Below are positions 3,204-61,418 of a DNA stretch of 64,000 nt, one piece after another. The notes under the pieces were generated by a model. The model had not been told where the DNA came from. It ran no database searches and saw only the letters and a program-made list of their open reading frames with translations. Location of the stretch: positions 1 through 64,000 of IMG/VR virus record IMGVR_UViG_3300025168_000033; one strand, 5' to 3'. The first letter of the stretch is position 1, and each line of letters opens with the position of its first letter. The DNA comes from a virus. The translations under genes and the position numbers were made by a program.

Positions 3204-3212
3204 ATTATCCTG

Positions 3213-3659: not shown

Positions 3660-3660
3660 A

Positions 3661-4981: not shown

Positions 4982-4983
4982 CT

Positions 4984-5382: not shown

Positions 5383-5385
5383 GAT

Positions 5386-37870: not shown

Positions 37871-38515
37871 TCAGTCTTCATTCATCTTTGGTTTTTCATG
37901 AACGTAACCTAATTTACTAAACTTTTCGTGATCTTCTTGAGTTTCTGCTTTATATTCCTTTCCAGACTTAGGACAGTACATCATATGAGGTTCAAAATCT
38001 TTTCCTTCATTAGTTTCATCGTCATCACCATGTTTCTTACCACATGATTCATTTACAAAAACACCTTTAGGTACATCCATTAAAGTAACAGTTTTTCCGT
38101 CCCATGATATTACACCTACAGTATTTTTTTTCTTATCTACAATATAATAAGTATCTTTGTCTTCATCACCACCTTCTAAATTATGATCATCGTTAGATAA
38201 CATATCTTCTAGTTGATTAATGTCACCATCAAATTTGAAACTATTTTTACCTTCGTTAACTGATTCATTTGCTTTATACCATTTTGACAATTTTTTAACG
38301 TCTTTAGGCTTTAATTTGCTTGTTGAATCTGTTAATTCATAAGTAATCTTAGCAATAAAGTCTTTCTCATTATTAGCAACCTTTAAGGTATCTTCTAATG
38401 AAGCTTCTATTTGATCGTAATCTAAGGTTACTGTTTTACCTTCATATTCTGAATCTATTGAAAATTCATGTGAACTTTCATTTAACCATTCTTCGTAGCT
38501 TTGTAAATTTTTCAT
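37871..38515 (-). CDS. capsid-targeted multi-module protein
   Basis: leader MKNLQSYEEWLNE; internal ANESVNE, VNE and TNE; late promoter at 38537-38545. Confidence 0.75.
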   Translation of the reverse strand: MKNLQSYEEWLNESSHEFSIDSEYEGKTVTLDYDQIEASLEDTLKVANNEKDFIAKITYELTDSTSKLKPKDVKKLSKWYKANESVNEGKNSFKFDGDINQLEDMLSNDDHNLEGGDEDKDTYYIVDKKKNTVGVISWDGKTVTLMDVPKGVFVNESCGKKHGDDDETNEGKDFEPHMMYCPKSGKEYKAETQEDHEKFSKLGYVHEKPKMNED

Positions 38516-38545
38516 TTGTATAATGCTTTTGTTTTATTATATATC

Positions 38546-40354
38546 TTAGTCAACTATTTCATATATGTTAAAAGTATCACCTCCGCCATCATGAATTTCT
38601 AATATTTGATTTATTGATTCAGATATTGCCGGATCAATATAATCCAGTAATTCTTCTACCATTTCAGAATAATCTGAAGTATCAAAAATAGAAGTTACAG
38701 TTACACATGTCATTATTGCATCGTCATTTCCAGACTGAGCTGCATAGGATCCATTTTTAGTTCGTGAAAAGGTTGTAGCTTCTTCAATAGTTTTTATTTC
38801 CTGTATTACTAATCTATTCTTTCTAATACTTTCTTTTAATGCTTGACAATAAAGTTTTTTATTTTCACCGTTTAATCTTACACCATGTGAAGTTTTTTTA
38901 GAATTTAATCTGTGTCTATATTTTACAATTATTTCTTCGTCAAATTCATTTCTTGCAGGATAAAGTGTTTGTAGATTTTTAATTAATTCAGATCCGTATG
39001 TATTATATTCCAATACAACTCGTAAATTTTCTGGTTCAAAAATTGATACACATAATTCATAAATAATCTTAGATAAATCTGGGATTGACATTACATTGCA
39101 TCTAAATATTCCAACCTGTTTTAATTGAAAGAATTCATAAATCGATCCTGGATTTGTAATTTCCTTATGATATTTAGGGTCTATAGGAACAACCTTGAAT
39201 ATGTTTAAAATAGAATAATCCAGTCCCACACCCTCAGCTAAATCAATAGACAATACAAAGAAATTTTTATTGTCCTTTAATTCATCATCTACATTAAAAT
39301 CTGGATGCCATTTTAAAAATGAATAATCTAATCCAAGATCGTCCAAATCATCAAATTCATAAAACTTAAAATGAGTTTCATGCTTTTTAAGTTTCTTTAT
39401 TTCATTAGATCCTAATAATAACGAATCCGCATTTATAAATTGACAACCATATTGCTTATTAAATTCTTCTACATCACCACCAAGATTTGAAATTTCTCTT
39501 GCTTTCCAGACTTCATCACGGCCAGGCACATCCCACCAGTCTACTTTAAATCCAACATAATCTGAATCACCATCTAGAGCATCCTGCCATAAACGCTGAA
39601 ATAAATTATAGCCGTTCGGTGTTGATGTAATAATTATTTTTGATATTTCTGATGATGATAAAGTTGGATAAACGTTACCATAAAATTCTTCTGCTATATT
39701 AGCTTCTACGTGAGCAAATTCATCTAAAAATAATAAATGAATAGTAAAACCAATACCGGCATTTTTTGTAGTATTTTGACCCATTATTCTACATTCATTA
39801 TCAAACTTCATAGACATTACATCCTTTTTGATAACTCCTGGTTTCATGAAAAATGGAAGTCCTTCAACTACAGCTCTAATCTTATCTAGAATTTCTCTAG
39901 TAGTTGCGCCTTTATTTGCAAGTAACATTACATTCTTATCAAAGTTAAAAACTAAAAACCAGGTTAAAAATATTGCTGAACAAATAGTTTTACCTACCTG
40001 TCTAGGAGCAAGACAAATATTGAATCTATTTGCCTGAAAAGATCTAAGCATATCCTCCTGATAAGGTCGTAATTCAATTTTTGTATATCCTTCGTCAGTC
40101 ATTACCTGACAATATTTATTTGCAAAATATACAATATCTCTAGCACATTTCTTTAATTCTGACATCTCCATGTCAGTATATTCATATACTATATTTCCTT
40201 TCTTATATGCACTATGCCCCTCATAAAACGGATGTGGTACTTCATATCCATTTTCAATAGCTTCTATAGTTTGTTCAACCTTTTCAGTTGTCCATACTAC
40301 CCTATTGTCCTGTTCTTCTTTTTCTGGTTTAAACTTTGGTATTTTAAAACTCAT
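38546..40354 (-). CDS. gp17: terminase large subunit
   Basis: LRPYQ, PRQVGKT, FLDEFAH, STPNG, IDLAEG and NDD. Confidence 0.97.
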   Translation of the reverse strand: MSFKIPKFKPEKEEQDNRVVWTTEKVEQTIEAIENGYEVPHPFYEGHSAYKKGNIVYEYTDMEMSELKKCARDIVYFANKYCQVMTDEGYTKIELRPYQEDMLRSFQANRFNICLAPRQVGKTICSAIFLTWFLVFNFDKNVMLLANKGATTREILDKIRAVVEGLPFFMKPGVIKKDVMSMKFDNECRIMGQNTTKNAGIGFTIHLLFLDEFAHVEANIAEEFYGNVYPTLSSSEISKIIITSTPNGYNLFQRLWQDALDGDSDYVGFKVDWWDVPGRDEVWKAREISNLGGDVEEFNKQYGCQFINADSLLLGSNEIKKLKKHETHFKFYEFDDLDDLGLDYSFLKWHPDFNVDDELKDNKNFFVLSIDLAEGVGLDYSILNIFKVVPIDPKYHKEITNPGSIYEFFQLKQVGIFRCNVMSIPDLSKIIYELCVSIFEPENLRVVLEYNTYGSELIKNLQTLYPARNEFDEEIIVKYRHRLNSKKTSHGVRLNGENKKLYCQALKESIRKNRLVIQEIKTIEEATTFSRTKNGSYAAQSGNDDAIMTCVTVTSIFDTSDYSEMVEELLDYIDPAISESINQILEIHDGGGDTFNIYEIVD

Positions 40355-40608
40355 TTAGCCTTTTTTAAAGTAATACTATCAACATTGACTTTTGAAACAT
40401 TAACTTTATCCTTCTTTGCGACCTTCTTGATTTCCATTTCGACCTTTTTGAATATCTTGTTTTTAACGCCTTCAAGTTCGCCACCAGGACCTAATAATTT
40501 TCTAGTAGCCTGTCCTTTTACGGCATTAGCTTTACGCTCTTTAGATTTTAATTTTGGTGGTCTTGCTCTTTCATTTAAGAATTCTTCGTATGATTGTAGA
40601 TTTTTCAT
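40351..40608 (-). CDS. capsid-targeted, highly basic protein
   Basis: leader MKNLQSYEEFLNE; Lys/Arg-rich. Confidence 0.75.
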   Translation of the reverse strand: MKNLQSYEEFLNERARPPKLKSKERKANAVKGQATRKLLGPGGELEGVKNKIFKKVEMEIKKVAKKDKVNVSKVNVDSITLKKAK

Positions 40609-40616
40609 ATTATATT

Positions 40617-41207
40617 TTATAGTTCAATTGATTTTATATCATATGCTGACGGACCCCAAAATAATACTTGTTCAACATCGTCACCAAAGTGATAATTTTT
40701 AATTGCATCAGTGGATTTAAATGTAATAGGATAAGATCCCCAATGCTTTGCGCCTTTTTGTAAAGTTCCGTATTTTTCTAACATATCATCATAATCAAGA
40801 CCATAGTTGTATCCAATATCTCTTTTAGGCTTATGTCGTGAAGACCAATTCATACCTAATTTAAGATAATCAGATTCACCGTAAATAAAGCCGTTTTTAA
40901 CAATATTTTGTCGAATTTTTTCTGATGATACAAAATGTACAATTAGTTTATCTGATGGATGATCTTCAGCAGGTGCATCAAAGAAATACATAGTTGGCAG
41001 TTTACTATAGTATTTTCGGTTATTAACTTTTGTAATTAGCTTAGCTGCATCAGACTCAGAATCAAGTTTTTCTTGAGGTAATATATGATCTTTGATCCAT
41101 TTTGCAAGTGACATATTGGTTCTATCAAAATGTTTCTTTAGAACATCAGTCCTTTTTCTACTAGCAGATTCATTCAAAAATTCATCGTATGACTGTAGAT
41201 TTTTCAT
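40617..41207 (-). CDS. capsid-targeted protein, possible H-type ART fold
   Basis: leader MKNLQSYDEFLNE; VHFVS, IVKNGF, YNY and EQV. Confidence 0.6.
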   Translation of the reverse strand: MKNLQSYDEFLNESASRKRTDVLKKHFDRTNMSLAKWIKDHILPQEKLDSESDAAKLITKVNNRKYYSKLPTMYFFDAPAEDHPSDKLIVHFVSSEKIRQNIVKNGFIYGESDYLKLGMNWSSRHKPKRDIGYNYGLDYDDMLEKYGTLQKGAKHWGSYPITFKSTDAIKNYHFGDDVEQVLFWGPSAYDIKSIEL

Positions 41208-41208
41208 G

Positions 41209-41580
41209 TTATTTCTTTTTTATGTCATCATGTTTAGGCTTTGGTCCTTTACCTTTTAACCAATCTGCAATATCTTTATCCGCAGTTTTATATGCAGTTC
41301 CTTTTTCTGTAAATACCGTCATTCTAGCATTACCCCATGCATTAAATGCAGCCGGCTTTCCTAGCTTTTTTATGTGTGGTCTTACAGCACCCCAGTTAGT
41401 AATTGCTGCACCATATCCTCTTAAAAATGCTGCCATTAATGCATATTCTAAATCTTTTGCATTTTTAGCTCCTAATGATTTTTGTAATTTTGGATCTTTT
41501 GAAAGTTTTTCTGCTCTTGATTCTGCTGCACTTTGCTTTGCTTCATTCAAGAATTCATCATACGATTGTAAATTTTTCAT
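41209..41580 (-). CDS. capsid-targeted protein
   Basis: leader MKNLQSYDEFLNE. Confidence 0.75.
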   Translation of the reverse strand: MKNLQSYDEFLNEAKQSAAESRAEKLSKDPKLQKSLGAKNAKDLEYALMAAFLRGYGAAITNWGAVRPHIKKLGKPAAFNAWGNARMTVFTEKGTAYKTADKDIADWLKGKGPKPKHDDIKKK

Positions 41581-42242
41581 ATTGTATATTGTGCTTTTGG
41601 TAGATTTTTTTTAGCAAATGTAATCCAGGTTTTAAGTACCTTATTTCTTTCAGTTTTAGTCATTAATTTTTGATCGATAAAATAATCAAGATATTCATTA
41701 AATACATCATTTAACGGTCGCTTTTCTGTTTTTGCTTGACGATACATTCCGTTTGCCATTGCTGGAACTTCATCCTTTAATAGAAAGTATTTATATAGAT
41801 TTCCTTTATCTCCGCTTATTTTATTTCTAATAATCGATCCAGTTATTTTAACCTTACTTGGACGTCTATTTTCACCGCCTTGAGTTAAATGTTCTATTTC
41901 ATGCCTAGCTGCATCCTGTAAAACTGCATTTAATTTTTGATAGCTTTGCGGTTCTTTAGCCGGATCCAAAGTAACAATAAATTCTATACCATTTACTGAT
42001 GGATAAGCACCAGCATCAACAATAACTCCTCGAGAATTTGATACCGCTTCACGTTTTATAAATAATTGTGCGTCATCAATAAATACCTTATCATTAAATT
42101 CACCTAAATCAAATTGTAACATTTCATGCTCTCCTTTAGGACTTGTTAATTTGATTATTGGCCAAATAGCATCTACTATTTCACCGGCAAGTTTATCATA
42201 ACTTCCTTCATTTAAGAATTGATTGTAATTTTTATATCTCAT
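41577..42242 (-). CDS. capsid-targeted zincin-like metallopeptidase
   Basis: leader MRYKNYNQFLNE; HEIEH plus downstream EVPA. Confidence 0.7.
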   Translation of the reverse strand: MRYKNYNQFLNEGSYDKLAGEIVDAIWPIIKLTSPKGEHEMLQFDLGEFNDKVFIDDAQLFIKREAVSNSRGVIVDAGAYPSVNGIEFIVTLDPAKEPQSYQKLNAVLQDAARHEIEHLTQGGENRRPSKVKITGSIIRNKISGDKGNLYKYFLLKDEVPAMANGMYRQAKTEKRPLNDVFNEYLDYFIDQKLMTKTERNKVLKTWITFAKKNLPKAQYTI

Positions 42243-42246
42243 TTAA

Positions 42247-43026
42247 TTATTTATCTTCATCAGGATCAAAATCTACATCCTGAATATCTGCCTGAATTTG
42301 TTGCATCATATTTCTATTGCCACGATTAATATGACCGTCTGTTGATTTTGCCGGAGCATCACCTGTTTCAATAGCTTCTGATGGCGAATAAATATCTATA
42401 TCATGTTTAAGCTTTTTAGCACCTTCTTCCATTGCATGTAAATGTAATGTTTGATGCTTCATAATATCTAGCATTGTTTTTTGTAATCCTCCCAGAACTT
42501 CAAACATTCTTGGATGTAATTCACCACTATCAATAGTTCTTAATAAGGTTGTAAGTGCATGTTCAGCAGTTTGCATTTGAAACATTAATGATGCTAATGT
42601 CATTTCATCGACATGAGCTTTCATTTTAATATATTCGTTAGTTTCTATGACGTCAGCACTTAAATATAATTTAAGCAATGAGTTCATTAATTTTTTCCCT
42701 TTCTTTGCTGAATTAGATTTTACTTCCAGATAATCCATTTGTGGAAGGTCAATTCTTGCAGGAAGGTCTGAATCATTAGCTGTTTCCACCGGTAATGATG
42801 ATGCTTCAGCCTGATCCAATAAATCTTTAATTGAATCTCTAGCTTCCTGTTTTGCCGGATCAACTTTATTTTCTTCTGGATTTTCCATAAGTTTTTGTTT
42901 TATATGTATTAATGCTAATTCCTGTGATTTGAATTCTATTGTTTCTAGATATGCATTATCAGGCATATCAAATAAATCTACGGCCCAGTCCTTTCCGTCT
43001 TTATATGGCTTAGAATATCTTATCAT
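42247..43026 (-). CDS. gp16: terminase small subunit-like
   Basis: HPRMFEVLGGL resembles the gp16-family HPRAYEV motif; ATG 43026 abuts the gp14 stop. Confidence 0.65.
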   Translation of the reverse strand: MIRYSKPYKDGKDWAVDLFDMPDNAYLETIEFKSQELALIHIKQKLMENPEENKVDPAKQEARDSIKDLLDQAEASSLPVETANDSDLPARIDLPQMDYLEVKSNSAKKGKKLMNSLLKLYLSADVIETNEYIKMKAHVDEMTLASLMFQMQTAEHALTTLLRTIDSGELHPRMFEVLGGLQKTMLDIMKHQTLHLHAMEEGAKKLKHDIDIYSPSEAIETGDAPAKSTDGHINRGNRNMMQQIQADIQDVDFDPDEDK

Positions 43027-43027
43027 T

Positions 43028-44797
43028 TTATCTACGACTATTTCTTGATAATCTAAGAGCTGGTAATGCATTATCTACAAGTGTAGCTTTATGACTATCA
43101 ACAACAACATATTGATTTAATATGAATGGTTGTTTTTCTTCTTCAATGCTTTCAGTAAATACTCTTAAATTTGTAAGTGAAATTTCACCACCATGCAATT
43201 CATAATATGTATTAGCTGGTTTTTGCGCACCTATTGAAATAGATTTTGTTTCACTAAATACTAATTTTAAATCTGTTGTTTGTGCTGTAGTTGGATTATT
43301 TTCATGTAAAGTCGGATTATATTTCATTTCCCATAAATATACAGATCCTTGAGAATATTTATTTGATAGATTTACAACTAACCCATACCACTTATTTGTG
43401 CTTAATGCAGTAAACGGGCCGTATGAATATGATGTAGCACCTATTGTTACATTTATTCCTGTAGTTCCTGTAGCACCAGCTCCTGTAGTATGTGCAAGAT
43501 CGATTGAAATTCCTGTAGTACCGTCAGTTCCATTTATTATTTTTGATGATGTTGCCCCAGTAGCTCCCCATACAGTTTTAGAAATATTGAACCATCCAGT
43601 ATAAGCTCTATTATCTGTAGCTTTTATGTCTACAGCTTTTTTATATTTTACAGCCAATGATCCGGTTGTAACAGTATTTAATTGATATCTGTATTTAGCT
43701 ACAATTGTCCAATAGTTATTGATGTCCTCATTATCAATTTTAAGTAATGTGCTCATCTCGGATCTAATAAAATCATATCCGCCTGTGCTAATAACATTAT
43801 ATTGTAACGGCTTTGTAACTTCTAGAAATTCATCATTGCGTTCAACACCTAATATTTCTTCAAAGTCATTAGTCAGATCTTCTACTATGGTATCAACGGC
43901 ATCTGTTCGTTTTACATTTTTTCTATCCTGCCATTTACGTAATGAAACTTTATAATAGATTCCTTCCTGCATAAAATCTTTAAAAAGATATGCGGAATTT
44001 ATTTCATACATTCTATCGGTCAATGGAAAGTATAAATAATCTCTTTCTTGTGGCCTTGCAACCTGACCGAATACAGTTTCAAATACTTCCTTTACAATAT
44101 GAATTTCAAAGTCCTGTTCAAAATCCATGTCAAGCGGTCCAAAATTTATTGCATTTTCTGGAAATTCATTATCGGGTACAACTATTTTTATTTCTTTTAC
44201 GTCAGTAACATCATATAATGAATATTCTCTAAGAATAACGTCTTTAGATCTTTGTTGTGGATCTACTTTAAAGTACTTTACACAATGTCCAAATAAATCA
44301 GAAATTCCTAATGCTAGCTGTTCCTGAAGACAGGCAGCTTTGGATGCAGTTTCATAAGGATTCCATAGATTTTTATCACATTTTATTCGTACTCCAGCAC
44401 AAAAATTTGGCTGTCCACAAGCTGTACCGACTGGCGGTAATTGAACAGTTTCAGTATTATTTAAAGTTATATTTGTTGTAATAGATTCTACTGAAAGATT
44501 TCCTATTCCAGTTCCTCCACGAGTATATCGATATTCTACCCAGATATCAGTTCCAGCAACACCTGGAATTCCATTAAATGAAGTAGCACCAGTACCAACT
44601 AATGTACTCCAAGCCGAGAATGAAATTGAATCATCCGACCATCTAAATTCTTTAGTAAAAAATTTATCTGAAGTTTCACCGACAATAACATCACTATAAG
44701 AATCTATAGATAGTACATCTAAATATGCACTATCAAATGATATAATTATTACTTCGCCTGTGGTTGTGGTATTTGTAGTACCTGAGATTGTAGGCAT
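43028..44797 (-). CDS. gp14: neck protein gp14-like with extra beta domains (C-terminal LamG-like)
   Basis: FGHCVKYF, DVILREY, PQERDYLYFP and MYEI; late promoter at 44813-44821. Confidence 0.7.
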   Translation of the reverse strand: MPTISGTTNTTTTGEVIIISFDSAYLDVLSIDSYSDVIVGETSDKFFTKEFRWSDDSISFSAWSTLVGTGATSFNGIPGVAGTDIWVEYRYTRGGTGIGNLSVESITTNITLNNTETVQLPPVGTACGQPNFCAGVRIKCDKNLWNPYETASKAACLQEQLALGISDLFGHCVKYFKVDPQQRSKDVILREYSLYDVTDVKEIKIVVPDNEFPENAINFGPLDMDFEQDFEIHIVKEVFETVFGQVARPQERDYLYFPLTDRMYEINSAYLFKDFMQEGIYYKVSLRKWQDRKNVKRTDAVDTIVEDLTNDFEEILGVERNDEFLEVTKPLQYNVISTGGYDFIRSEMSTLLKIDNEDINNYWTIVAKYRYQLNTVTTGSLAVKYKKAVDIKATDNRAYTGWFNISKTVWGATGATSSKIINGTDGTTGISIDLAHTTGAGATGTTGINVTIGATSYSYGPFTALSTNKWYGLVVNLSNKYSQGSVYLWEMKYNPTLHENNPTTAQTTDLKLVFSETKSISIGAQKPANTYYELHGGEISLTNLRVFTESIEEEKQPFILNQYVVVDSHKATLVDNALPALRLSRNSRR

Positions 44798-44838
44798 AGA
44801 TATACTTTTATTTTATATATCTACGCCTATGAATGATG

Positions 44839-45426
44839 TTATTTTTTTTGAGCTAAATAACCTTTAATTGCATCTATTGCATTATCATCGCCCATTGTAT
44901 ATCCAAGGCCAACAAATTTTCCAGTATCAACTTTTTTACCGTTTAATGATAATGTCCACGTTGTGCGTTGACCCATTTCTTTATAGTGGTCACTCCAAGC
45001 CTCACCTCCAGATACTTCAGTATACTTCCATTTATCTCTACCCCATTTAGCTTCAAAATAATAATCAGTATCATCATAATCATCTTTTGTGATTTTGATT
45101 TTATCATGCTTAGGTTTTTCTTTATTAATTTTATCGACTTTACCATATTTTTTCTCTAGGCCTTCAATATATTCAACAAGTTCTTTTTCATATTCTATTG
45201 TTAACTGCATATTAGTATCCCAACGGTTTGGCTCGTTATTCAATAAATTAATACTAAATTCAACACCACGCTGATAATATTTGTAGACTTTAAGAATTTT
45301 ATTTTTTTCTTTTTTAAAAGTAACATAAAGATCCTCATTGTAATTGGCATCTTTTAATGCTGCTAAAACTGAATTTATTTTAACAGCTTCATTTAAAAAT
45401 TCATCGTATGATTGTAGATTCCTCAT
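44839..45426 (-). CDS. capsid-targeted protein
   Basis: leader MRNLQSYDEFLNE. Confidence 0.75.
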   Translation of the reverse strand: MRNLQSYDEFLNEAVKINSVLAALKDANYNEDLYVTFKKEKNKILKVYKYYQRGVEFSINLLNNEPNRWDTNMQLTIEYEKELVEYIEGLEKKYGKVDKINKEKPKHDKIKITKDDYDDTDYYFEAKWGRDKWKYTEVSGGEAWSDHYKEMGQRTTWTLSLNGKKVDTGKFVGLGYTMGDDNAIDAIKGYLAQKK

Positions 45427-45428
45427 AA

Positions 45429-46127
45429 TTATTTTGTTACTTTTCCTACGACTTTATAGATATATCCTTTATGACCATCTCTCATTCGGGCTTCTCCTTC
45501 GTTTTTTCTTTCTGTTATTTTGAATTTTGCACTACCAAAAATATTTTTGAAATATTCCATAGCAAGCTTTACTACATGGAATCCTTCTAATTCAGTTTCT
45601 ATTTCTTTTTCGTTTTTCTTGATTTCTGAACTGGATTGTGTATCACCATGTCCTTTTTCGTAATGTATCCAGGTCAAGACAAAATCACTAATATTAAATA
45701 TATATTCTTCCTTCTTTTCATCATATTTAAACATGACGTCATTACTATTGCCATATTGATATTCCTTGTTTTTGATGCCTTCTATCATTTCAGCAATCTT
45801 TCTATCTAGGTCGATTGATTTGCCTTCTTTACCATCAGGTGACATGAAAAAAACTTTTCTTCCTTTCTTTGCTGCTATTAGCTCACCATGTTCAACCAAT
45901 GAATCCACCCATTCATATCCATATTGAGTACCTCGATTAACCTTGAAATGATTTCTAGGAAGTTCTTTTACTTTACCTGAAAGAATATCTTTTACCGATT
46001 GAATCCAGCCTTCTAAATAAGTTGATCTTTTATGATTGCTTCTTAATGCATTATAATAGTCATCCATACTGGATCTTTTATAATAGCTCTCGTTTAAAAA
46101 TTCGTCGTACGATTTAAAATTTTTCAT
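45429..46127 (-). CDS. capsid-targeted protein
   Basis: leader MKNFKSYDEFLNE. Confidence 0.75.
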   Translation of the reverse strand: MKNFKSYDEFLNESYYKRSSMDDYYNALRSNHKRSTYLEGWIQSVKDILSGKVKELPRNHFKVNRGTQYGYEWVDSLVEHGELIAAKKGRKVFFMSPDGKEGKSIDLDRKIAEMIEGIKNKEYQYGNSNDVMFKYDEKKEEYIFNISDFVLTWIHYEKGHGDTQSSSEIKKNEKEIETELEGFHVVKLAMEYFKNIFGSAKFKITERKNEGEARMRDGHKGYIYKVVGKVTK

Positions 46128-46129
46128 TT

Positions 46130-46564
46130 TTATCTATGTATTTTATTTTCTTCACCTTGAATTAATTTACCTTTTGATGTAAACACCATAGGTCCGTAAA
46201 TATCATAAGATTTGCTTGAATTAAAAACAATCTTCATGTTAGCTACTACTTTACGCATAGCTGATAATGATTCCATGAAAAGAAAGTATTTACCATTTTC
46301 TCTTCTATCATCTAACAAATTAATGTGTCCAAATCGATTTAAATCCATCCCAGCTGTTATTTCTTCTATCATGTTAGATAATTCAAACCCTTTAGGTTTT
46401 TTTACTTTATCATCTTCACTTTGACCAAAATCTTCGCGATCAATAAACACACCATAATAATCAGTAGCATTATTAACATTAAATCCTTCTAACCATGGTG
46501 AATAAATAGATTTAGGTTTTCTTGCTTCGTTTAGAAATTCATCGTATGATTGTAAATTTTTCAT
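46130..46564 (-). CDS. capsid-targeted protein
   Basis: leader MKNLQSYDEFLNE. Confidence 0.75.
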   Translation of the reverse strand: MKNLQSYDEFLNEARKPKSIYSPWLEGFNVNNATDYYGVFIDREDFGQSEDDKVKKPKGFELSNMIEEITAGMDLNRFGHINLLDDRRENGKYFLFMESLSAMRKVVANMKIVFNSSKSYDIYGPMVFTSKGKLIQGEENKIHR

Positions 46565-46573
46565 ATTATATTT

Positions 46574-47041
46574 TTATTTACGCCAGTCCCAAACACTGTC
46601 TTTGTTTTTAATTCTAGAAGAACTACCATAGTCAATTGATGTTCCTCGATTTATAAAAAGTACTTTATTATATAGCAAGGCATCACCAAAGTTAGTTCCA
46701 AAAAAATCAGACACTTGTCCATATTCTTTAGCACCTTTTTCTTTAAGAAACTTAAAAAATTTAGAAATCATTTCTAATTTTATGTTTTTATTAGGTTCAA
46801 GATTTCCTTTACGCGTTGGTTTAGGAACTATTGAATCCATTTCTTTGCTTTTTTTACCATCACCCCTTTTATACCATTGATGTTTTACTTTTTGTTCAGG
46901 AACAATAACGAATCCACTTTCTATATATGAATCATCGCTTTCATCATTAAATTCCATAGAAATAGTATAAGCTACTTTCATTAGTCTTTCTTCGACTTTA
47001 CTTTCATTCAAGAATTCATTATATGAATGTATATTTTTCAT
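46574..47041 (-). CDS. capsid-targeted protein
   Basis: leader MKNIHSYNEFLNE. Confidence 0.75.
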   Translation of the reverse strand: MKNIHSYNEFLNESKVEERLMKVAYTISMEFNDESDDSYIESGFVIVPEQKVKHQWYKRGDGKKSKEMDSIVPKPTRKGNLEPNKNIKLEMISKFFKFLKEKGAKEYGQVSDFFGTNFGDALLYNKVLFINRGTSIDYGSSSRIKNKDSVWDWRK

Positions 47042-52546: not shown

Positions 52547-53011
52547 TTATTTTATTTTGATTCTATTCATGTATGTGATCTTGTGTCCCATCTGTTCGTA
52601 ATGTTTAGTTGGGGTTCCGTCGATAGTAATTTCTTCACCTAACTCAGCAGAGATGTAAAGTTTGATTTTGTTGCCATCGGCAGTTTCAGCTATCACACCT
52701 TCATATTGCGTTTTTGTGATAGTTAATTTTAAATCTTTAATTCGCTTCTTAAGAGTTCCAAAGAATTCGCTTGTAGAATTTTCTTTGTTTCTTTTTGCGA
52801 TTGAATCGAAGTATTCAGAAACCTTTGCTTTTGCAGCACTCAACAAATTTAATTTTTTGTTGATTGTTGCTTGACCAACTCGCCAACCAGATTGAGAGTA
52901 ATATGGATCGTAATTTTTAGTGAACCAGATTAGCCAATTGATATCACTTAATGCGATTTCAGCGATTGTTCTTCCTGTGTGTTTTCCGAATGTAATTGTC
53001 AAATTTTCCAT
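52547..53011 (-). CDS. early protein with FGKH N-domain and OB-like C-domain
   Basis: ITFGKHTGRTIAEI...WLIW. Confidence 0.6.
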   Translation of the reverse strand: MENLTITFGKHTGRTIAEIALSDINWLIWFTKNYDPYYSQSGWRVGQATINKKLNLLSAAKAKVSEYFDSIAKRNKENSTSEFFGTLKKRIKDLKLTITKTQYEGVIAETADGNKIKLYISAELGEEITIDGTPTKHYEQMGHKITYMNRIKIK

Positions 53012-53033
53012 GTGTGTGTATTTATGTGTTATC

Positions 53034-53090
53034 AGTTATTAATTATTTATAGTTAAATATAATCAAAAAAATCGACAGTAAAAAATCCTG
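53034..53090 (-). promoter_or_regulatory. early promoter repeat
   Basis: matches the consensus; near-duplicate of the 53454 copy. Confidence 0.8.
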
Positions 53091-53100
53091 GTGAACTTTT

Positions 53101-53430
53101 TTAAAAATCTTTATTTTTAAGCTCTGCTATTTCGTATTCCCAGTTCTTATCGAGTTGTAGTAATGCAAATACCAGATCCTTTTTGCGTTCATAGCTATTG
53201 TAATCTTCGAAGTATTCATATAGATTTTCATCTACATTATCATCAAGTATTGCAACTTCCCACCAGGTAGTTTCGCAACTATCTTCGTTGAAATTAACTG
53301 TGAAATTTTTTCCTGTGTATGTGTAGTAACCGGGAAGTTTAGTAATTTTGTCGTTAATAAGAAGTTCGGCTTTAGTAACTCTACTTCCGAAATCTCTTAC
53401 TTGTTGTGCAACTGTACGATATTTTTTCAT
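53101..53430 (-). CDS. hypothetical early protein
   Basis: flanked by two early promoter units. Confidence 0.65.
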   Translation of the reverse strand: MKKYRTVAQQVRDFGSRVTKAELLINDKITKLPGYYTYTGKNFTVNFNEDSCETTWWEVAILDDNVDENLYEYFEDYNSYERKKDLVFALLQLDKNWEYEIAELKNKDF

Positions 53431-53453
53431 GATGTGTGTATTTATGTGTTATC

Positions 53454-53510
53454 AGTTATTAATTATTTATAGTTAAATATAAACAAAATAATTGACAATA
53501 AAAAATCCTG
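53454..53510 (-). promoter_or_regulatory. early promoter repeat
   Basis: matches the consensus. Confidence 0.8.
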
Positions 53511-53516
53511 ATGAAC

Positions 53517-54014
53517 TTATTTTTTGGATTTTTTCAAATACTCCATGAATGCCTTCTGGTCTTTACGTAATAAGGCTTTACAGTAATGTGTGAATGCTAA
53601 TGAATCTTCAAGTATTAAATTAGGCACCATTTTTGCATCCTTGACATAACGCTCGTTACATGATTCACACACAAAATTATCAGGCTTAAAATAATCCATC
53701 TGTGATTCTATCGGAATTTTACAGTATGCACAATCCCATTTTACTAGTTTAAGATTTCTATTCATCTCAACCAGATTAGTAATTTCTTTTGTGTGCGGAT
53801 CTACATAAACTTTTCTAAACATTGGATTGTCTAGAATTTGATCCTCCATTTTAAATATGATTTTTAATGCGGCATCATCGGGTGAGATTTCATCCAACAA
53901 TTTATCTTGTGTTAATAGCTTTACGTGCCTAGGCAAAAGAAGGTCCAGAATAATTCTGAACCTTGTTTTTCTTCTTCCTTTATTTTGTCTTTTTATAATA
54001 GACTTTCTAGCCAT
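53517..54014 (-). CDS. Zn-finger hypothetical protein
   Basis: CAYC...CESC. Confidence 0.65.
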   Translation of the reverse strand: MARKSIIKRQNKGRRKTRFRIILDLLLPRHVKLLTQDKLLDEISPDDAALKIIFKMEDQILDNPMFRKVYVDPHTKEITNLVEMNRNLKLVKWDCAYCKIPIESQMDYFKPDNFVCESCNERYVKDAKMVPNLILEDSLAFTHYCKALLRKDQKAFMEYLKKSKK

Positions 54015-56192: not shown

Positions 56193-57869
56193 TTAATATA
56201 TTCCGTATTGAGAGAATATACCAAAAGTAATATAGTTTGTTTCTGGGTGATGTCCAGCTTCAACTAATGCGAATCTAGATTTAACCGCAATTTTAGGAGC
56301 CATTGTTCCTTCAGCGATAGTTTCTACTGATTCAGCCATTAAGTAAGGCATGAATACCAATCCAGGTGAATTACCATCTCCTTTTCTTCCAACTAATACT
56401 CTGTTGTCAGACCAAGCCATGTTAGGATCAACATAAACAGCTACACCTCCAATTGTTCCAACTGGGTAAAGTGAACCACCTACTTGATTTAAAGTATTTG
56501 CCATTGGCGCAGCGATAAAACCAGCACTATCTTGTAAAGCAGTAGCGATTTGACCGTTTGTTACCATGAAGTTAGCATTACCTCTTCTTCCTCTGATAGC
56601 AATCATGTTAGCACAAGCAAGAACCTTACTAAAGATCTTTCTTTGTCTTGTATGAATGTTTTCTGAAGTAGATATAGTAGTACCTTCAGTTGCAGGAACA
56701 GGAGTAGTAAAATCACCTACTCTGTTAGCTCCAGTAGAATCAATTGCAGATCCAAAAGAACCAATTGCAGTTGTAGTATTAGATAAGTTCAAGTGGAAAT
56801 GAACATTTTGAGTTTTAGAAATATTTGCATGGTTTTTAACACCTAATTTAAACAATCTTTCTAAGATGTTTTTGTTGATTGATTGAGTCAATTCATTTGC
56901 AAGAACAGCTTCAACCTGAGCAACAGCATCAACACCAAATTGTTTTAAATCTTGAACTTGTTCTCTTGTAACTGCAGCAGCAACTTGGAAAGTTTTAGCT
57001 TCAACAGATTGATTGAACAATGTCAAGTTCATGATATTATCTTGAGTTGTTTCACCAGCATCTCTTGAATAAGGATCATTAGATCCATAAGAATTACCAG
57101 AGAATCCAGTAATATGATCTTCTAGAGATTTTACTAATGAAGCAGCAGAAGTTTGATCAGCTCCGTCTTGAACACCAACTGCGGTTGCAGAAGTAGCAGC
57201 ATAAACAGCCCATGAACCATCAATACAATCAGCAATTGAAGGAGCAGTAGTAGTATTACCTACACTATAAACATTACCAGTAGCAATAGTACCAGTAGAA
57301 ATTACTTCAAAGATACTAAATCCATCAATTCTAGAAGTTCCTAAGAATTTAGAATAAATTGCGTTAGCATTGTTACCAGTTGTTCCAGCAGAAGCTAAGA
57401 AGTGATTATCATTAACAACAAGAGTTGAATCAGTAGTATCAACCTTGATTATAGCAGGATTATTATCAGTTCCTTTAGCATCCAATTTTCCACCTCCGTA
57501 AACGAAGTCTAAATAAGTTAAAACACCCATTGGTCCAGGCATTGGTATAACTGGTACTAGGTCTAAACCTACAGTATTTGCAGCAACTTGCATTGCTAAA
57601 GGTAATAAAGTGTGAGCTTTATCTCCTGATCCTTTTACACCACCGGCAAAACCGTCTTGTGATCCTGGGGGTCCAGGGAATTTTGTTGCTCCCATTCCGT
57701 TTACACCACCTAAAGTTGCGTAAGCGTTGTTTTCGTAAAGCTCATGGTTATGACAGTATTTTGACATCCATTCAACAGTATTACGGTCTTTAATTCCCGT
57801 AGTAGACTCGATGATCGGTGCCCATTTACTCATAACCTCAGCTTCGTTAATCATTTTATGTCCGTACAT
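56193..57869 (-). CDS. gp23: major capsid protein
   Basis: KWAPI, LVPVIPMPGP, VEAKT, QDLK, FMPY and KSRFAL. Confidence 0.95.
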   Translation of the reverse strand: MYGHKMINEAEVMSKWAPIIESTTGIKDRNTVEWMSKYCHNHELYENNAYATLGGVNGMGATKFPGPPGSQDGFAGGVKGSGDKAHTLLPLAMQVAANTVGLDLVPVIPMPGPMGVLTYLDFVYGGGKLDAKGTDNNPAIIKVDTTDSTLVVNDNHFLASAGTTGNNANAIYSKFLGTSRIDGFSIFEVISTGTIATGNVYSVGNTTTAPSIADCIDGSWAVYAATSATAVGVQDGADQTSAASLVKSLEDHITGFSGNSYGSNDPYSRDAGETTQDNIMNLTLFNQSVEAKTFQVAAAVTREQVQDLKQFGVDAVAQVEAVLANELTQSINKNILERLFKLGVKNHANISKTQNVHFHLNLSNTTTAIGSFGSAIDSTGANRVGDFTTPVPATEGTTISTSENIHTRQRKIFSKVLACANMIAIRGRRGNANFMVTNGQIATALQDSAGFIAAPMANTLNQVGGSLYPVGTIGGVAVYVDPNMAWSDNRVLVGRKGDGNSPGLVFMPYLMAESVETIAEGTMAPKIAVKSRFALVEAGHHPETNYITFGIFSQYGIY

Positions 57870-57897: not shown

Positions 57898-59736
57898 TTA
57901 AATTTTGTTTGTTTTGAATCGTTTTGCTAATCCTTCAGTAACTGCATCCATATAAGAACTTGTAACTTTAACTTCGTTTATCGATTCAGAATTTGCAATT
58001 GCAGATTCATTAATCGGTTGAATTATTTCAGATCTCAAATCTCTTGTCGACCAAAAATGATCGATTTGATATTGTGATTCTAAAACACTAACAGAAGCTT
58101 GTAATTTAATTTCTTCTTGTTTGCTTTCACTTAAAGAATCATAAGACTCTTTATATTTAGCTGGGATATTTTCCAACCAATTTAAAACTTTAGGTTCGGG
58201 TGTTGTTGCTGATTCCCATATTCTTTCAACATCTCTAGTTCCGAAGTATTTGTTATTTTTAAATGCAAGTATCAAGTCACCTTGAGAGCTTTCATTTAAT
58301 TTTGCAAATTCACTTCTCTTAGATTCCGTTACAAAATGTAGGAAATGCAAGTCCTTATCTTCAGTTACTGCTTTTTGCTTCTTAGCAGATTCAAGTAAAG
58401 TATTTATCTTAGTACTGATATCATTCTTAAAGTTATCATTACTTTCTATAATTAAATTTTCTTTAGGTTCCGATTGCTTACTTATTCTACCATTACCTTC
58501 ATTAATTAATTTTGCACCGTTAAGTTCAGCAAAATTTTCATTAATATCGTTAATAGAATGTTCGGTATATGAACCTAGAGTTTCTAGATTTTCTTTAATA
58601 TATTCAGTAAAATTAGCAACATGTTCCATGTTCTCAACAATATAATCGTTATGAGAAATAAGAGTATCTACTGATTCATTAATTGTAGTTTGATATTCAA
58701 ATCTTGAATTAACTTCTTCACTAATGTGTTTAGAATATTCAATTGAATTATCAACTGATTCAGCAACCATTTTACTATATTCGATTGAATTATCAAGGTT
58801 TTCAGCCAATGATTTACTATATTCAATTCCTTGATCGGTCTTAAGAGCAACCAATTCACTATAATCTTTAACTGATTCAAGACCTTCAACAATATAATCA
58901 TTATGTGCAATTAGGTTGTCTGTATTTTCTTCAACCTTATTGATTTTTGAATTCATTGAATTTACTTCCTTAGCAATAGTTTCAACCCACTCTACAATTT
59001 GTGATTGTTCCTTTGTATTATTAGAAGGTATATCAGATTCGTTTATAGATTTGATTGATTCCTGGATCTTATTGAATTGTTCAGTGATATATTTTGAATA
59101 TTTATCGAACTGATCCATTGAGATGAATGATTCACCTTTAGTTTCGTTTATTGCAACTTCTGGTGCGTCAACTTGAGTTAAACCGTTATTTGTGTTATCC
59201 ATTTCAAATATTTGTATTGTATCGTCGTTTTGTAAGCCAAATGATTCATTGACTCTGTTTAATTGTGCATTTTCAAATCCTGGATCTGCAACCAAATCAT
59301 AAGTAAATAATCTTTTAACTTTTACATGATTATTTGATTCAACAACACCAGCTGCTCTAGATGAAATATGTATTGGAACTCCTGCATCAACTAATGCCTT
59401 TGCTTGTTTTCCAGCATCAGTATCAAGTAGCTTAATTCTACCTCTTACTTGTTTTGAAGATTTATCGTAAGATATTTCTTCTATAACATGTGATACATTT
59501 TTTAATGATACTTCGAATTGTTTTGGATGATCCAGTTCTCCTAGAATTTTTCTATCTTTAACTTTTTTAGCTAATTCTTCCACATGAGGAACAAATTCAG
59601 CTTCATCGTAAATTCGATTGTTTTTATTTTTTGTGCCTATTTCCGAAAAAATTCCTTCCAGTATATAATCGCCATTAGCGGTTTTCTGGAATTCTGCCTC
59701 AGAAACTGATCTTTCAAGAATCAGTAAGTTTTTCAT
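57898..59736 (-). CDS. gp21: prohead protease gp21 fused to a gp22-like scaffold
   Basis: NKNNRIY, GELDHP, ISSRAAG and DLVADPG, then a coiled coil with nine [ILV]NE sites; ATG 59736. Confidence 0.88.
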   Translation of the reverse strand: MKNLLILERSVSEAEFQKTANGDYILEGIFSEIGTKNKNNRIYDEAEFVPHVEELAKKVKDRKILGELDHPKQFEVSLKNVSHVIEEISYDKSSKQVRGRIKLLDTDAGKQAKALVDAGVPIHISSRAAGVVESNNHVKVKRLFTYDLVADPGFENAQLNRVNESFGLQNDDTIQIFEMDNTNNGLTQVDAPEVAINETKGESFISMDQFDKYSKYITEQFNKIQESIKSINESDIPSNNTKEQSQIVEWVETIAKEVNSMNSKINKVEENTDNLIAHNDYIVEGLESVKDYSELVALKTDQGIEYSKSLAENLDNSIEYSKMVAESVDNSIEYSKHISEEVNSRFEYQTTINESVDTLISHNDYIVENMEHVANFTEYIKENLETLGSYTEHSINDINENFAELNGAKLINEGNGRISKQSEPKENLIIESNDNFKNDISTKINTLLESAKKQKAVTEDKDLHFLHFVTESKRSEFAKLNESSQGDLILAFKNNKYFGTRDVERIWESATTPEPKVLNWLENIPAKYKESYDSLSESKQEEIKLQASVSVLESQYQIDHFWSTRDLRSEIIQPINESAIANSESINEVKVTSSYMDAVTEGLAKRFKTNKI

Positions 59737-59819
59737 ATTTGTAGGTTTATTTTTAGCTTGGCTATTTGTTATATATATCAAGTTCACATTTACAAATGTG
59801 GTATCATTTTATAATACTT

Positions 59820-61418
59820 TTAAAAACCATCGTCATCCGATGTTAATTTTGCTTTCTCTGCCATTTCTTTCTCCTCTCTCTCTTTTAATTTAGCATTTAA
59901 TTTCAAATCATCCGCGGATAATCCAAGATATTTTCTAACTAAGAATTCAGATGAAAAGAATTTTGATTCATTCATATCAGCATCAGTATCAACTAATCCG
60001 TCTTTCATTGTTTGAATAAAATTGATTTCTTTCTCTAATACTTCCATTTCCTGCATCTTAATAAACATATTATTCTTCTGATATACTATACCTATTTGCT
60101 GTTTAAAATTATCATCATTGGCTAATTCTGGAAAGTCTAAGGCCATTTGTTGCCATAAAGGTTTTACAAGTATTTCTTGGAATTGTGTTCTCATACGATC
60201 AATAAAACGACCAAATTTTAACTCATCTCTAGTAGCACCTTCAGCCTGCATTTCCCATGATGGCGGCGATTCCTGATCAAATCTAGATAAAGGAATCTTA
60301 GTAACTTTATGAAATTCTTCTCTAAAATATCTAATTGCATCCGTATCACTTAAATCAGGACCATCATTTGCAAGTGTTTCAATTTCTGGTTGACCTGCAT
60401 CATTAGATGGTAACCAGTATTCCTTATTGAAAGGCATCATAGGTTTTCCATTTACCTGCAATTCACCAGATTCTACATCAAAATCCATTACTTCACGATA
60501 AGATTGCATTAGTACTCCTAATGATTGTTTTGCTCTAGTTTTTGATTTACCTCCTACTGGAATTATAAATTTAGTTTTAAATGATGAATTTACAACAGAC
60601 CATATAATTCTGGAATGTTCCATGATTCGTAAGATATTAAATGTTCTTACTAATCGTTCTACATAACTTACACGTCCAGGTGAATTAATTTGAGAATAAG
60701 AAAGATAAATTACTTGAGAATCATATAGTTCTCTTTGTTTTCTTACGTCACCTTTAAATTGAGTCCACATTTTCTTACCATCACTGTCTAGACCAGGCTC
60801 AATTGATGAGGGGTCTATTTCTTTGAATCCAATGATGTTTCTCATGTTCTTATCATAAATGATTTCAAACGCAAGATATCCATCAATCAACCATTTTCTA
60901 AAAAAGTTCCATGCAGAAATATCGTTATTGAATCCAAAATATTGATAGATTTTTTTGAAATTAGTTTGTACTGCATCAGAGATTTTCTTGTTAACATCAA
61001 CGGTAATTAATTCATCATCAAATATTTTTGGATATGCAAAGAAATTGGTTGCATCATATACAATAGCTTCATCCGCAAGTACATCCAATACATCTTCAAT
61101 TTTATCCTGAACAGAAAAGCGTCTTAAGTCTTCTCTTTTCTTTACATAGTTTCTATCATAAATAGAAATATTTTTACGAAGATTTATATCTGCCATTGAA
61201 AGATTAGCAAACATTCGATATTCATCATATTCGCCACCCATAAGGTTTGCCTGATCATATCGCCAACCATATTCATCTTCAGTAATACCGATAGATCTGG
61301 AATTTCTTAATACCATATCGTCATACTTCATTCCAAATGAACTAAGCTTCTTAATGAATTTTGTTACTGGATTTTTACTTTCCAAATAACTACCATTCCT
61401 ATTTACAAATCCTGACAT
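59820..61418 (-). CDS. gp20: portal protein
   Basis: FRKWLIDG, SYVE, EYWLP, IETL and RDELKF. Confidence 0.95.
   Translation of the reverse strand: MSGFVNRNGSYLESKNPVTKFIKKLSSFGMKYDDMVLRNSRSIGITEDEYGWRYDQANLMGGEYDEYRMFANLSMADINLRKNISIYDRNYVKKREDLRRFSVQDKIEDVLDVLADEAIVYDATNFFAYPKIFDDELITVDVNKKISDAVQTNFKKIYQYFGFNNDISAWNFFRKWLIDGYLAFEIIYDKNMRNIIGFKEIDPSSIEPGLDSDGKKMWTQFKGDVRKQRELYDSQVIYLSYSQINSPGRVSYVERLVRTFNILRIMEHSRIIWSVVNSSFKTKFIIPVGGKSKTRAKQSLGVLMQSYREVMDFDVESGELQVNGKPMMPFNKEYWLPSNDAGQPEIETLANDGPDLSDTDAIRYFREEFHKVTKIPLSRFDQESPPSWEMQAEGATRDELKFGRFIDRMRTQFQEILVKPLWQQMALDFPELANDDNFKQQIGIVYQKNNMFIKMQEMEVLEKEINFIQTMKDGLVDTDADMNESKFFSSEFLVRKYLGLSADDLKLNAKLKEREEKEMAEKAKLTSDDDGF

What the first reader, a model, noticed from the sequence alone, without database searches (positions are those of the whole stretch)
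37871..47041. Cargo array 2 has its own leader variant, conserved at DNA level
Nine tagged genes lie here, mostly MKNLQSY(D/E)EFLNE. The 39-nt leaders at 40570-40608, 41169-41207, 41542-41580, 45388-45426 and 46526-46564 are close copies of one another and differ from the array-1 variant. Inference: leaders spread by local duplication or recombination, and the leader DNA may itself be the homology that captures or shuffles cargo genes.
Basis: partly seen in the sequence, partly recalled or inferred. Interest (0 to 1): 0.7.

Follow-up and report, generated by a model that had tools for sequence, protein, structure and literature searches.

The report
Capsid-tag leaders as cargo-shuffling junctions
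Nine genes around the DNA-packaging gene of an uncultured T4-like jumbo phage start with the same 13-residue "load me into the head" tag, and comparison with related phages shows that whole cargo genes are inserted, deleted and swapped at this tag, which would let the phage exchange its probably injected proteins.

Summary
Nine minus-strand genes at 37871-47041 carry the tag, six as M(K/R)NLQSY(D/E)E(F/W)LNE. They lie in three slots between core genes (terminase, two neck-region genes), not in one array.

The five flagged 39-nt leaders are 82-90% identical. That is what their peptide plus the genome's codon bias predicts (simulated mean 83%; 6% of simulations reach the observed 87%). Leaders cluster by locus at amino-acid level (p<0.001), but synonymous sites carry no locus signal.

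The tag reads as a T4-type capsid targeting sequence. It shares (S/T)YxEF(L/I)xE with T4's tag and ends in the (L/I/V)NE motif that occurs 9 times in the scaffold fused to the S77 prohead protease.

- A 94%-identical contig lacks exactly one leader-plus-cargo unit (599 nt, 40609-41207) and keeps a single hybrid leader.
- That cargo (89% nt) sits in a foreign context elsewhere, behind a leader matching its new neighbour.
- A 75%-terminase relative has two cargos in swapped order behind 38/39-identical leaders.
- One leader type sits on three unrelated cargo families.

It is a coding-sequence variant of T-even internal-protein and PeSL cassette shuffling. The scan had already noted the tag on this genome. 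Packaging, cleavage and the recombination mechanism are inferred.

The parts
37871..38515 (-). Tagged cargo gene (214 aa), alone in the slot between terminase and tail sheath. Leader at 38477-38515. It has 4 (L/I/V/M/F)NE sites.
   Evidence: The slot is empty in L035 and L034 and holds two other tagged genes plus a MUG113/T5orf172 ORF in L038.
38546..40354 (-). Large terminase, a core gene that splits the 'array'.
   Evidence: Pfam Terminase_6N on the identical product in L061.
40351..40608 (-). Tagged cargo S (85 aa). Leader at 40570-40608.
   Evidence: Orthologues in L040 (55% aa) and L055 carry different leader variants.
40609..41207 (-). Cassette X: one leader (41169-41207), a 196-aa cargo (gene 40617-41207) and an 8-nt spacer, 599 nt in all. 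This is the unit present or absent between close relatives.
   Evidence: Repeat spacing of 599 nt. Absent from L055, which keeps one hybrid leader. Absent from L040. Present at 89% nt in a foreign context in L058. Present in two further assemblies that are 99.99-100% identical.
41209..41580 (-). Tagged cargo C (123 aa). Leader at 41542-41580.
   Evidence: Orthologues at 58-92% aa identity carry at least four different leader types. dS against L040 is 0.73, versus 1.2-1.8 for the flanking genes.
41577..42242 (-). Tagged cargo H (221 aa) with an invariant HExxH motif. It has a degenerate 12-residue leader at 42207-42242.
   Evidence: In 17 homologues conservation restarts exactly after the leader's Glu. 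AF2 model pLDDT is 81, with residues 1-12 below 50. No significant fold match.
42247..44797 (-). Two core genes (274 aa and 589 aa, the latter weakly T4 neck-like) separating two cargo slots.
   Evidence: Syntenic orthologues in L035, L040 and L055. Pfam T4_neck-protein E=0.005, below the cut-off.
44839..47041 (-). Slot of four tagged cargo genes: 44839-45426, 45429-46127, 46130-46564 and 46574-47041. Leaders at 45388-45426, 46089-46127, 46526-46564 and 47003-47041.
   Evidence: The slot is empty in L035, where the membrane protein is followed directly by the 644-aa orthologue. No family hits.
57898..59787 (-). Prohead protease (S77, gp21 family) fused to a scaffold-like tail with 9 (L/I/V)NE sites. 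This is the presumed enzyme that removes the leader.
   Evidence: PF03420 at E=7e-13 and 6e-11. Site density is 5 times the genome mean and all sites lie after residue 160.
56193..57869 (-). Gp23-type major capsid protein. Its first 9 residues end in INE followed by A.
   Evidence: PF07068 at E=6e-36. N-terminus read.
59820..61418 (-). T4-type portal protein.
   Evidence: PF07230 at E=2e-68.

Best explanation
The leader is a T4-type capsid targeting sequence. It is a short N-terminal propeptide that docks otherwise unrelated proteins onto the scaffold core of the prohead. The S77 prohead protease then cuts it off after the Glu of (L/I/V)-N-E, so the mature cargo stays in the head and is probably ejected into the host with the DNA.

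Because every cargo gene begins with the same roughly 39 nt, the leader also serves as the junction at which cargo cassettes are gained, lost and exchanged. Recombination within or between leaders deletes or inserts exactly one leader-plus-cargo unit, keeps the reading frame, and gives an incoming cargo the resident leader. The agent is most likely the phage's own general (UvsX-type) recombination acting on short homology.

That is why leader variants follow the locus rather than the cargo. In this window the events are old. Synonymous sites have since randomised, and what is left is a locus-specific peptide variant kept by selection on the tag.

Shown: the tag, its locus clustering, the protease, capsid and portal families, and the indel, swap and leader-copy patterns in relatives. 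Inferred: packaging, cleavage, ejection, and homology as the cause of the crossover position.
For: CTS reading:
- The tag aligns with T4's MKTYQEFIAE (PMC8442874) as (S/T)-Y-x-E-F-(L/I)-x-E.
- S77 protease, Gp23 capsid and T4 portal lie in the same window.
- The scaffold tail has 9 (L/I/V)NE sites, 5 times the genome density.
- The capsid protein has INE|A at residues 7-10.
- In the H and X cargo families conservation restarts right after the leader's Glu, while leaders vary in type and length.
- The leader of H is disordered in the AF2 model.
- Third codon positions vary while the peptide is kept.
- The mature parts of 36 tagged proteins show no BLASTP similarity to each other.

Shuffling at leaders:
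- L055 indel of 599 nt with one hybrid leader.
- X cargo at 89% nt in a foreign context, with its leader matching the new neighbour.
- L040 gene-order swap with 38/39-identical leaders, simulated P about 0.001-0.002.
- C has half the dS of its flanks.
- Leader type B sits on the KTSC, C and DPP cargo families.
- Slots are filled differently or are empty in L035, L034 and L038.
- Distance decay: peptide differences of 4.4, 4.9 and 5.7, and same-residue codon identity of 0.67, 0.63 and 0.58, for pairs at <=1.5 kb, 1.5-5 kb and >5 kb on one contig.
- Pairs sharing >=36/39 nt: 5 of 131 neighbour pairs versus 8 of 4495 pairs from different contigs, Fisher p=2e-5.
- A RecA/UvsX-like gene is present and no tyrosine integrase was found in the 166.5-kb fragment.
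- T4 ipII and ipIII share an identical 30-nt tag-coding stretch plus about 17 nt upstream, before unrelated cargo.
Against: - No proteomic or cleavage data exist for this uncultured phage.
- Within the window the leaders are no more alike in DNA than their peptides require. The longest exact run between the two leaders flanking cassette X is only 14 nt (read), which is poor substrate for classical homologous recombination.
- In an array where every gene begins with a leader, any whole-gene indel will look leader-flanked. Selection for intact frames could therefore place junctions there without help from homology.
- The near-identical leader pairs are few, and their per-pair P values (0.001-0.02) are modest given about 130 neighbour pairs.
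- Pairs in the distance-decay test are not independent.
- The relatives are metagenomic contigs, although a k=99 assembly cannot collapse an imperfect 39-nt repeat.
Confidence: 0.65

Rival explanations
1. Peptide selection only. The genes in each slot descend from old tandem duplications of one tagged gene. The cargos diverged beyond recognition while the tag was kept. Leader DNA plays no part in recombination, and indels look leader-flanked only because every gene starts with a leader.
For: Synonymous sites in the window's leaders are randomised and DNA identity equals the peptide-based expectation. Leaders cluster by locus as duplication would predict.
Against: - Orthologous cargos keep 54-92% identity between phages, yet their leaders match their own neighbours rather than each other.
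- One leader type occurs on three cargo families.
- Cargo X occurs in unrelated contexts at 89% nt.
- Cargos in a slot show no similarity at all.
- Leader pairs at 38/39 nt have identity confined to the leader.
Confidence: 0.2
2. Co-evolution with the receptor. All leaders of a phage drift together because they must fit that phage's scaffold or core binding site, which gives lineage-specific variants without any DNA exchange.
For: L040 and the window use different variants on orthologous cargos. The protease-scaffold gene also diverges between relatives.
Against: Two or more variants coexist in one genome, and similarity falls with distance along the same contig. The model does not explain the 599-nt indel, the order swap or the near-identical synonymous sites in some neighbour pairs.
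Confidence: 0.08
3. The conserved 5' end is not a packaging tag. It is some other signal, such as an export signal or an RNA-level element controlling translation of a gene set.
For: No direct evidence of packaging. The same genome uses repeated promoter and 5'-leader cassettes elsewhere.
Against: The peptide is acidic and amphipathic, not a hydrophobic signal peptide (read). Third codon positions vary freely, so the constraint is on the peptide. The end of the motif matches the sites repeated in the scaffold next to an S77 protease, and the motif matches the T4 tag.
Confidence: 0.05

Closest known systems
Phage T4 internal proteins IPI-IPIII and their capsid targeting sequence (Mullaney & Black 1996; Repoila et al. 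1994, as cited in PMC3012670 and PMC12373910)
   Same: Both have a short N-terminal tag on otherwise unrelated small proteins, ending in a hydrophobic-x-Glu site for the gp21-family protease. The cargo genes sit in polymorphic loci. In T4 the adjacent genes ipII and ipIII share identical tag-coding DNA. The known T4 cargos inhibit host restriction systems.
   Different: The tag here is 13 residues, with three extra residues after Met-Lys, and has Asn at P2. There are about 36 tagged genes in 166 kb against three in T4. They are inserted between structural and packaging core genes. Most leader copies have diverged at synonymous sites, and several locus-specific variants coexist. The protease is fused to the scaffold. 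Nothing has been tested experimentally.
PeSL (promoter-early stem-loop) modular shuffling in T4-type phages RB49 and phi1 (Arbiol et al. 2010, PMC2839356; Comeau et al. 2014, PMC4122927)
   Same: A short repeated element flanks each accessory gene. In a close relative the cassette is replaced by a single chimeric element. No dedicated recombinase is known. This is exactly the pattern of window versus L055.
   Different: The repeated element here is protein-coding (the tag itself), not an intergenic promoter-terminator. A crossover must therefore keep the frame and automatically re-tags the incoming cargo. Mini-circles have not been looked for.
Propeptide-bearing head and ejection proteins of giant phages phiKZ, 201phi2-1 and SPN3US (PMC5694885)
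   Same: Many head-internal proteins are processed after Glu in an x-X-E motif by a gp21-related protease.
   Different: Those propeptides are long (often over 100 residues), and that paper describes no common short leader among them. Here one short portable leader is reused.
Integron gene cassettes
   Same: Arrays of promoterless, unrelated cargo genes, each bounded by a copy of a short recombination element. Cassettes move between arrays.
   Different: No integrase was found in the fragment. The element is translated, and the analogy is functional only.

Membership tests
T4-type capsid targeting sequence / internal proteins | Shared N-terminal leader of about 10-20 residues on otherwise unrelated proteins | tested here: met
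   Nine genes here and about 36 in the genome. Mature parts show no BLASTP hit to each other. The leader shares (S/T)YxEF(L/I)xE with the T4 tag quoted in PMC8442874.
T4-type capsid targeting sequence / internal proteins | Leader ends in the cleavage motif of a gp21-family (S77) prohead protease encoded by the same phage | tested here: met
   PF03420 at 57898-59787. The (L/I/V)NE motif occurs 9 times in its scaffold tail and once at the capsid protein N-terminus. Actual cleavage was not tested.
T4-type capsid targeting sequence / internal proteins | Proteins are physically packaged in the head, trimmed, and ejected into the host | not testable with these tools
   Uncultured phage. This needs virion proteomics.
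T4-type capsid targeting sequence / internal proteins | Neighbouring leader copies identical in DNA, including the ribosome-binding region, as in T4 ipII/ipIII | tested here: not met
   Array-2 leaders are 82-90% identical, no more than the peptide predicts, and the upstream DNA is unrelated. The feature is met only for the 88943/89384 pair elsewhere in this genome and for L040 C/H, both 38/39.
PeSL-type modular shuffling cassettes | Cassette flanked by two copies of a short repeat, replaced in a close relative by one chimeric copy | tested here: met
   Window 40609-41207 versus L055 2786-2824. The two gapless alignments overlap by exactly the 39-nt leader.
PeSL-type modular shuffling cassettes | The repeat is an intergenic early promoter plus a stem-loop terminator | tested here: not met
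   The repeat is the first 13 codons of each gene. Separate promoter cassettes do exist elsewhere in the window.
PeSL-type modular shuffling cassettes | Excised cassette mini-circles detectable during infection | not testable with these tools
   Needs inverse PCR or long reads from an infected culture or a virome.
Integron | Tyrosine integrase adjacent to the array | tested here: not met
   PF00589 was not found in the 166.5-kb fragment, which CheckV estimates at 59% complete.

The most novel reading that the evidence does not exclude
In a widespread clade of uncultured marine jumbo T4-like phages, the DNA encoding the capsid-targeting peptide doubles as a portable recombination site. This would be a translated analogue of attC or PeSL that needs no integrase. 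Any cargo recombined behind it is automatically tagged for packaging and injection, so these phages would draw on a shared, rapidly shuffled pool of dozens of injected effectors.
Probability: 0.45. Interest if true: 0.75.

Novelty: new variant of a known kind. Interest (0 to 1): 0.6.

Why it matters
Injected internal proteins are the first phage products to meet host defences. In T4 all three are specific inhibitors of GmrSD-type restriction enzymes (PMC12373910). A phage with about 36 tagged genes, able to swap them at the tag itself, would have a plug-and-play counter-defence arsenal. The tag gives a simple sequence handle for listing candidate injected effectors in metagenomes. The leader-bounded cassettes give a concrete, testable mechanism for how such arsenals turn over. 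It also extends the T-even internal-protein and PeSL shuffling ideas to a distant jumbo-phage lineage, with the recombining element inside the coding sequence.

Tried and rejected
- Megablast of the region against GenBank phages found nothing.
- Terminase tblastn places the phage only near uncultured huge phages, Sphingomonas phage PAU and Tenacibaculum phages, at 44% identity or less.
- Pfam, PHROGs and NCBIfam on the nine cargos gave no hit above any cut-off.
- The Atlas search for H gave only unnamed viral clusters, plus weak LPD23 and SprT-like leads.
- The AF2 model of X was poor (pLDDT 64) and was not searched.
- The AF2 model of H was good (pLDDT 81), but Foldseek against PDB found nothing at E<=0.001. 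Scattered HExxH peptidases appear among the chance-level rows.
- Excess C-ending codons in the leaders (TAC, AAC) were considered as a sign of shared DNA ancestry. This was rejected because the capsid gene shows the same preference, so it looks like expression-linked codon choice.
- An exact T4 late-promoter motif (TATAAATA) precedes some head-module genes but not the array-2 slots, so no conclusion on timing was drawn.
- L043 diverges from the window inside gene H and continues into an unrelated reverse-strand ORF that I read by eye as polymerase-like. I treated it as a probable low-coverage chimera.
- L061, L062 and L063 are 99.99-100% identical to the window and so give no information on indels.
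- No nucleotide tree was built. 39-nt sequences resolve poorly, so distance-based permutation tests were used instead.
- No complex prediction was attempted.
Full report
**Setting.** The window is the first 64 kb of a 166.5-kb IMG/VR virus record (GC 31%, 201 of 207 called genes on the minus strand). Terminase similarity places it among uncultured huge phages and near Sphingomonas phage PAU and Tenacibaculum phages, at 44% identity or less. Megablast against GenBank phages finds nothing. The head module in the window is of T4 type:
- portal at 59820-61418 (PF07230, 2e-68);
- an S77/gp21 protease domain at the N-terminus of a 629-aa ORF at 57898-59787 (PF03420, 6e-11);
- Gp23 capsid protein at 56193-57869 (6e-36).

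**The observation.**
- Nine minus-strand ORFs between 37871 and 47041 begin with the tag. Six read M(K/R)NLQSY(D/E)E(F/W)LNE, two are close variants, and the one at 42242 is a degenerate version one residue shorter.
- The repeat finder recovers the leaders as an 8-copy family at the stated coordinates.
- Genome-wide about 36 ORFs carry the tag.
- Array 1 (1180-5655) has its own variant. Leader peptides differ on average at 2.6 positions within and 4.4 between arrays 1 and 2 (p=0.0006). Over four loci the figures are 2.9 versus 5.0, and none of 20,000 permutations reached that difference. The locus-specific variant is therefore real.
- The 'array', however, is three slots of 1, 4 and 4 tagged genes, separated by the terminase gene and two neck-region core genes.

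**Is it conserved at the DNA level?** Not beyond what the peptide dictates.
- The five flagged leaders share 32-35 of 39 nt (87.2%). Redrawing codons for the same peptides from the genome's codon usage gives 83% (95% range 78-88%), and 6% of simulations reach the observed value.
- At positions where two leaders encode the same residue, the codon is identical in 65% (array 2), 58% (array 1) and 61% (between arrays) of cases. The expectation is 63-67%.
- The within-versus-between difference at synonymous sites is not significant (p=0.22).
- Variation is concentrated at third codon positions, so selection acts on the peptide.
- The leaders' liking for C-ending codons is shared with the capsid gene and looks expression-linked.

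**What the tag is.**
- T4's capsid targeting sequence is MKTYQEFIAE, cut once by the prohead protease (PMC8442874; PMC5694885). The tag here aligns with it as (S/T)-Y-x-E-F-(L/I)-x-E and has three extra residues near the N-terminus.
- It ends in (L/I/V)-N-E. The same motif occurs 9 times in the scaffold-like tail of the protease ORF, all after residue 160. That is 5 times the genome density.
- The capsid protein has I-N-E followed by A at residues 7-10.
- In the two cargo families for which I collected homologues (H, 17 sequences; X, 12), conservation restarts exactly after the leader's Glu. The leaders themselves differ in type and length, from 10 to about 30 residues.
- The AF2 model of H (pLDDT 81) leaves residues 1-12 disordered.
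- The mature parts of the 36 tagged proteins show no BLASTP similarity to one another. The nine cargos here match no Pfam, PHROG or NCBIfam family above a cut-off.
- I read the tag as a capsid targeting propeptide. Packaging, cleavage and ejection are inferred from the T4 system.

**Relatives: the slots are hyperplastic.**
- L035 (terminase 46% aa) has the same core order: clamp loader, exonuclease, two small genes, membrane protein, 644-aa, 214-aa, terminase, sheath, tube. It has no tagged gene in any of the three slots.
- L038 (sheath 81% aa) has two different tagged genes plus a MUG113/T5orf172 ORF between terminase and sheath.
- L034 (terminase about 60% aa) has nothing there, but has two tagged genes between sheath and tube.

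**Relatives: junctions at the leader.**
1. L055 aligns gaplessly to window 43991-41169 (93.7% over 2823 nt) and to 40608-39746 (94.3%).
   - The two alignments overlap in L055 by exactly its 39-nt leader at 2786-2824.
   - The window has an extra 599 nt (40609-41207), which is one leader, the 196-aa cargo X and an 8-nt spacer.
   - L055's single leader is 36/39 to each flanking window leader and mixes their diagnostic bases.
   - This is the pattern described for PeSL cassettes in RB49 and phi1 (PMC2839356).
2. The closest homologue of X elsewhere (L058) is 89% nt identical over 595 nt.
   - Homology starts at the ATG and ends at the stop. The flanks are unrelated, and one neighbour is a homologue of an array-1 gene of this genome.
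   - The leader's first 27 nt differ at 8 positions against 10% in the cargo.
   - Its first 15 nt are identical to the start of the next gene's leader in L058.
3. L040 (terminase 75% aa) has the order C, H, S, where the window and L055 have H, C, (X), S.
   - Its C and H leaders are 38/39 identical, rare codons included. The identity stops at both leader ends (flanks 14-16 of 60). The simulated P is 0.001-0.002.
   - The window uses ...LQSY(D/E)E... on these cargos and L040 uses ...L(I/T)TYD(D/E)....
   - C is 92% identical in its mature part, yet its leader differs at 3 of 13 residues.
   - C's dS (0.73) is about half that of its flanks (1.2-1.8), which suggests more recent exchange.
4. A conserved trio of cargos (C, a 'DPP' module, a KTSC-domain protein) occurs in L051, L013, L022, L030 and L006.
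   - A second leader type, with F-L at positions 4-5 and L/F at P2, sits on KTSC in three contigs, on C in L013 and on DPP in L030.
   - The MKN-type leader sits on the other members.
   - In this genome C and the DPP-containing gene (8271-8747) lie in different arrays.
5. Across 101 canonical leaders from 30 contigs, similarity falls with distance along a contig.
   - Peptide differences rise from 4.4 (<=1.5 kb) to 4.9 (1.5-5 kb) to 5.7 (>5 kb, same contig).
   - Same-residue codon identity falls from 0.67 to 0.63 to 0.58.
   - Pairs with at least 36/39 nt are 5 of 131 among neighbours and 8 of 4495 between contigs (p=2e-5). One such pair is in this genome at 88943/89384.

**Mechanism.** The simplest account is recombination within or between leaders: unequal exchange, excision and reinsertion, or exchange between co-infecting phages. 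Each event removes or adds one leader-plus-cargo unit, stays in frame, and leaves the incoming cargo behind the resident leader. That makes leader variants track the locus. The fragment encodes a RecA/UvsX-like protein and no tyrosine integrase. T4 itself shows the young state of such a pair: ipII and ipIII share 30 nt of tag-coding DNA plus about 17 nt upstream, identical, before unrelated cargo. In this window the copies are old, so only the peptide-level signature remains.

**Caveats.**
- Leader-flanked indels are partly expected in any array of leader-first genes.
- Exact runs between window leaders are short (14 nt at most between the two leaders flanking cassette X, read).
- Near-identical pairs are few.
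- All relatives are metagenomic contigs, although the window's own arrangement is reproduced at 99.99-100% in two other samples.

**Comparison and novelty.** The tag system had already been noted by this scan on the same genome. What is added here is the test of the DNA-level claim, which is negative for the flagged copies, and comparative evidence that the leader is the cassette junction. The closest known cases are the polymorphic T-even internal-protein loci and PeSL-mediated shuffling. The difference is that the repeated element is the coding tag itself, in a distant jumbo-phage lineage, at a scale of dozens of cargos. I rate it a new variant of a known kind.

Noticed in passing
window 660-775, 2255-2360, 52995-53110, 53415-53530 (minus strand): Four copies of an intergenic cassette of about 100 nt. 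A block of about 55 nt is nearly invariant and contains TTGTTT...TATAAAT, followed by a CA-repeat leader. It looks like a PeSL-like promoter cassette.
   Followed up: partly
window 57898-59787: The S77 protease domain and a scaffold-like tail are a single 629-aa ORF. In T4, gp21 and gp22 are separate genes. The first (L/I/V)NE site, at residue 162, would release the protease domain.
   Followed up: partly
window 37871-38515: This tagged cargo has four (L/I/V/M/F)NE sites, so it may be cut into several pieces after packaging.
   Followed up: no
genome 88005-88943 and 88953-89384 (outside the window): Adjacent tagged genes whose 39-nt leaders are 38/39 identical, with unrelated cargo after residue 14. 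This is the youngest leader copy in this genome.
   Followed up: partly
L038 875-1186; contig of P0029: A MUG113/T5orf172 (GIY-YIG-like) ORF sits between two tagged genes in L038. A GIY-YIG gene follows the X homologue P0029. Homing endonucleases may help move cassettes.
   Followed up: no
L034 393-896 and 1012-2886: The terminase of this relative is split into two ORFs with a 115-nt gap. This could be an intron, an insertion or a frameshift.
   Followed up: no
window 41577-42242 and 17 homologues: Cargo H has an invariant R-H-E-x-E-H block (an HExxH motif) and belongs to a large virus-only family of unnamed proteins. It may be a metallopeptidase, but no significant fold match was found.
   Followed up: partly
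T4 NC_000866 18966-19130 (gene 61.1): T4 gp61.1, a hypothetical 54-aa protein, begins M-K-T-F-K-E-F-I-K-E. That is a near match to the capsid targeting sequence outside the known ip genes.
   Followed up: no
L043 1-287: A contig 97% identical to window 41195-41699 switches, inside gene H, to an unrelated reverse-strand ORF that I read by eye as polymerase-like. It is probably a low-coverage chimera, but a real rearrangement is not excluded.
   Followed up: partly
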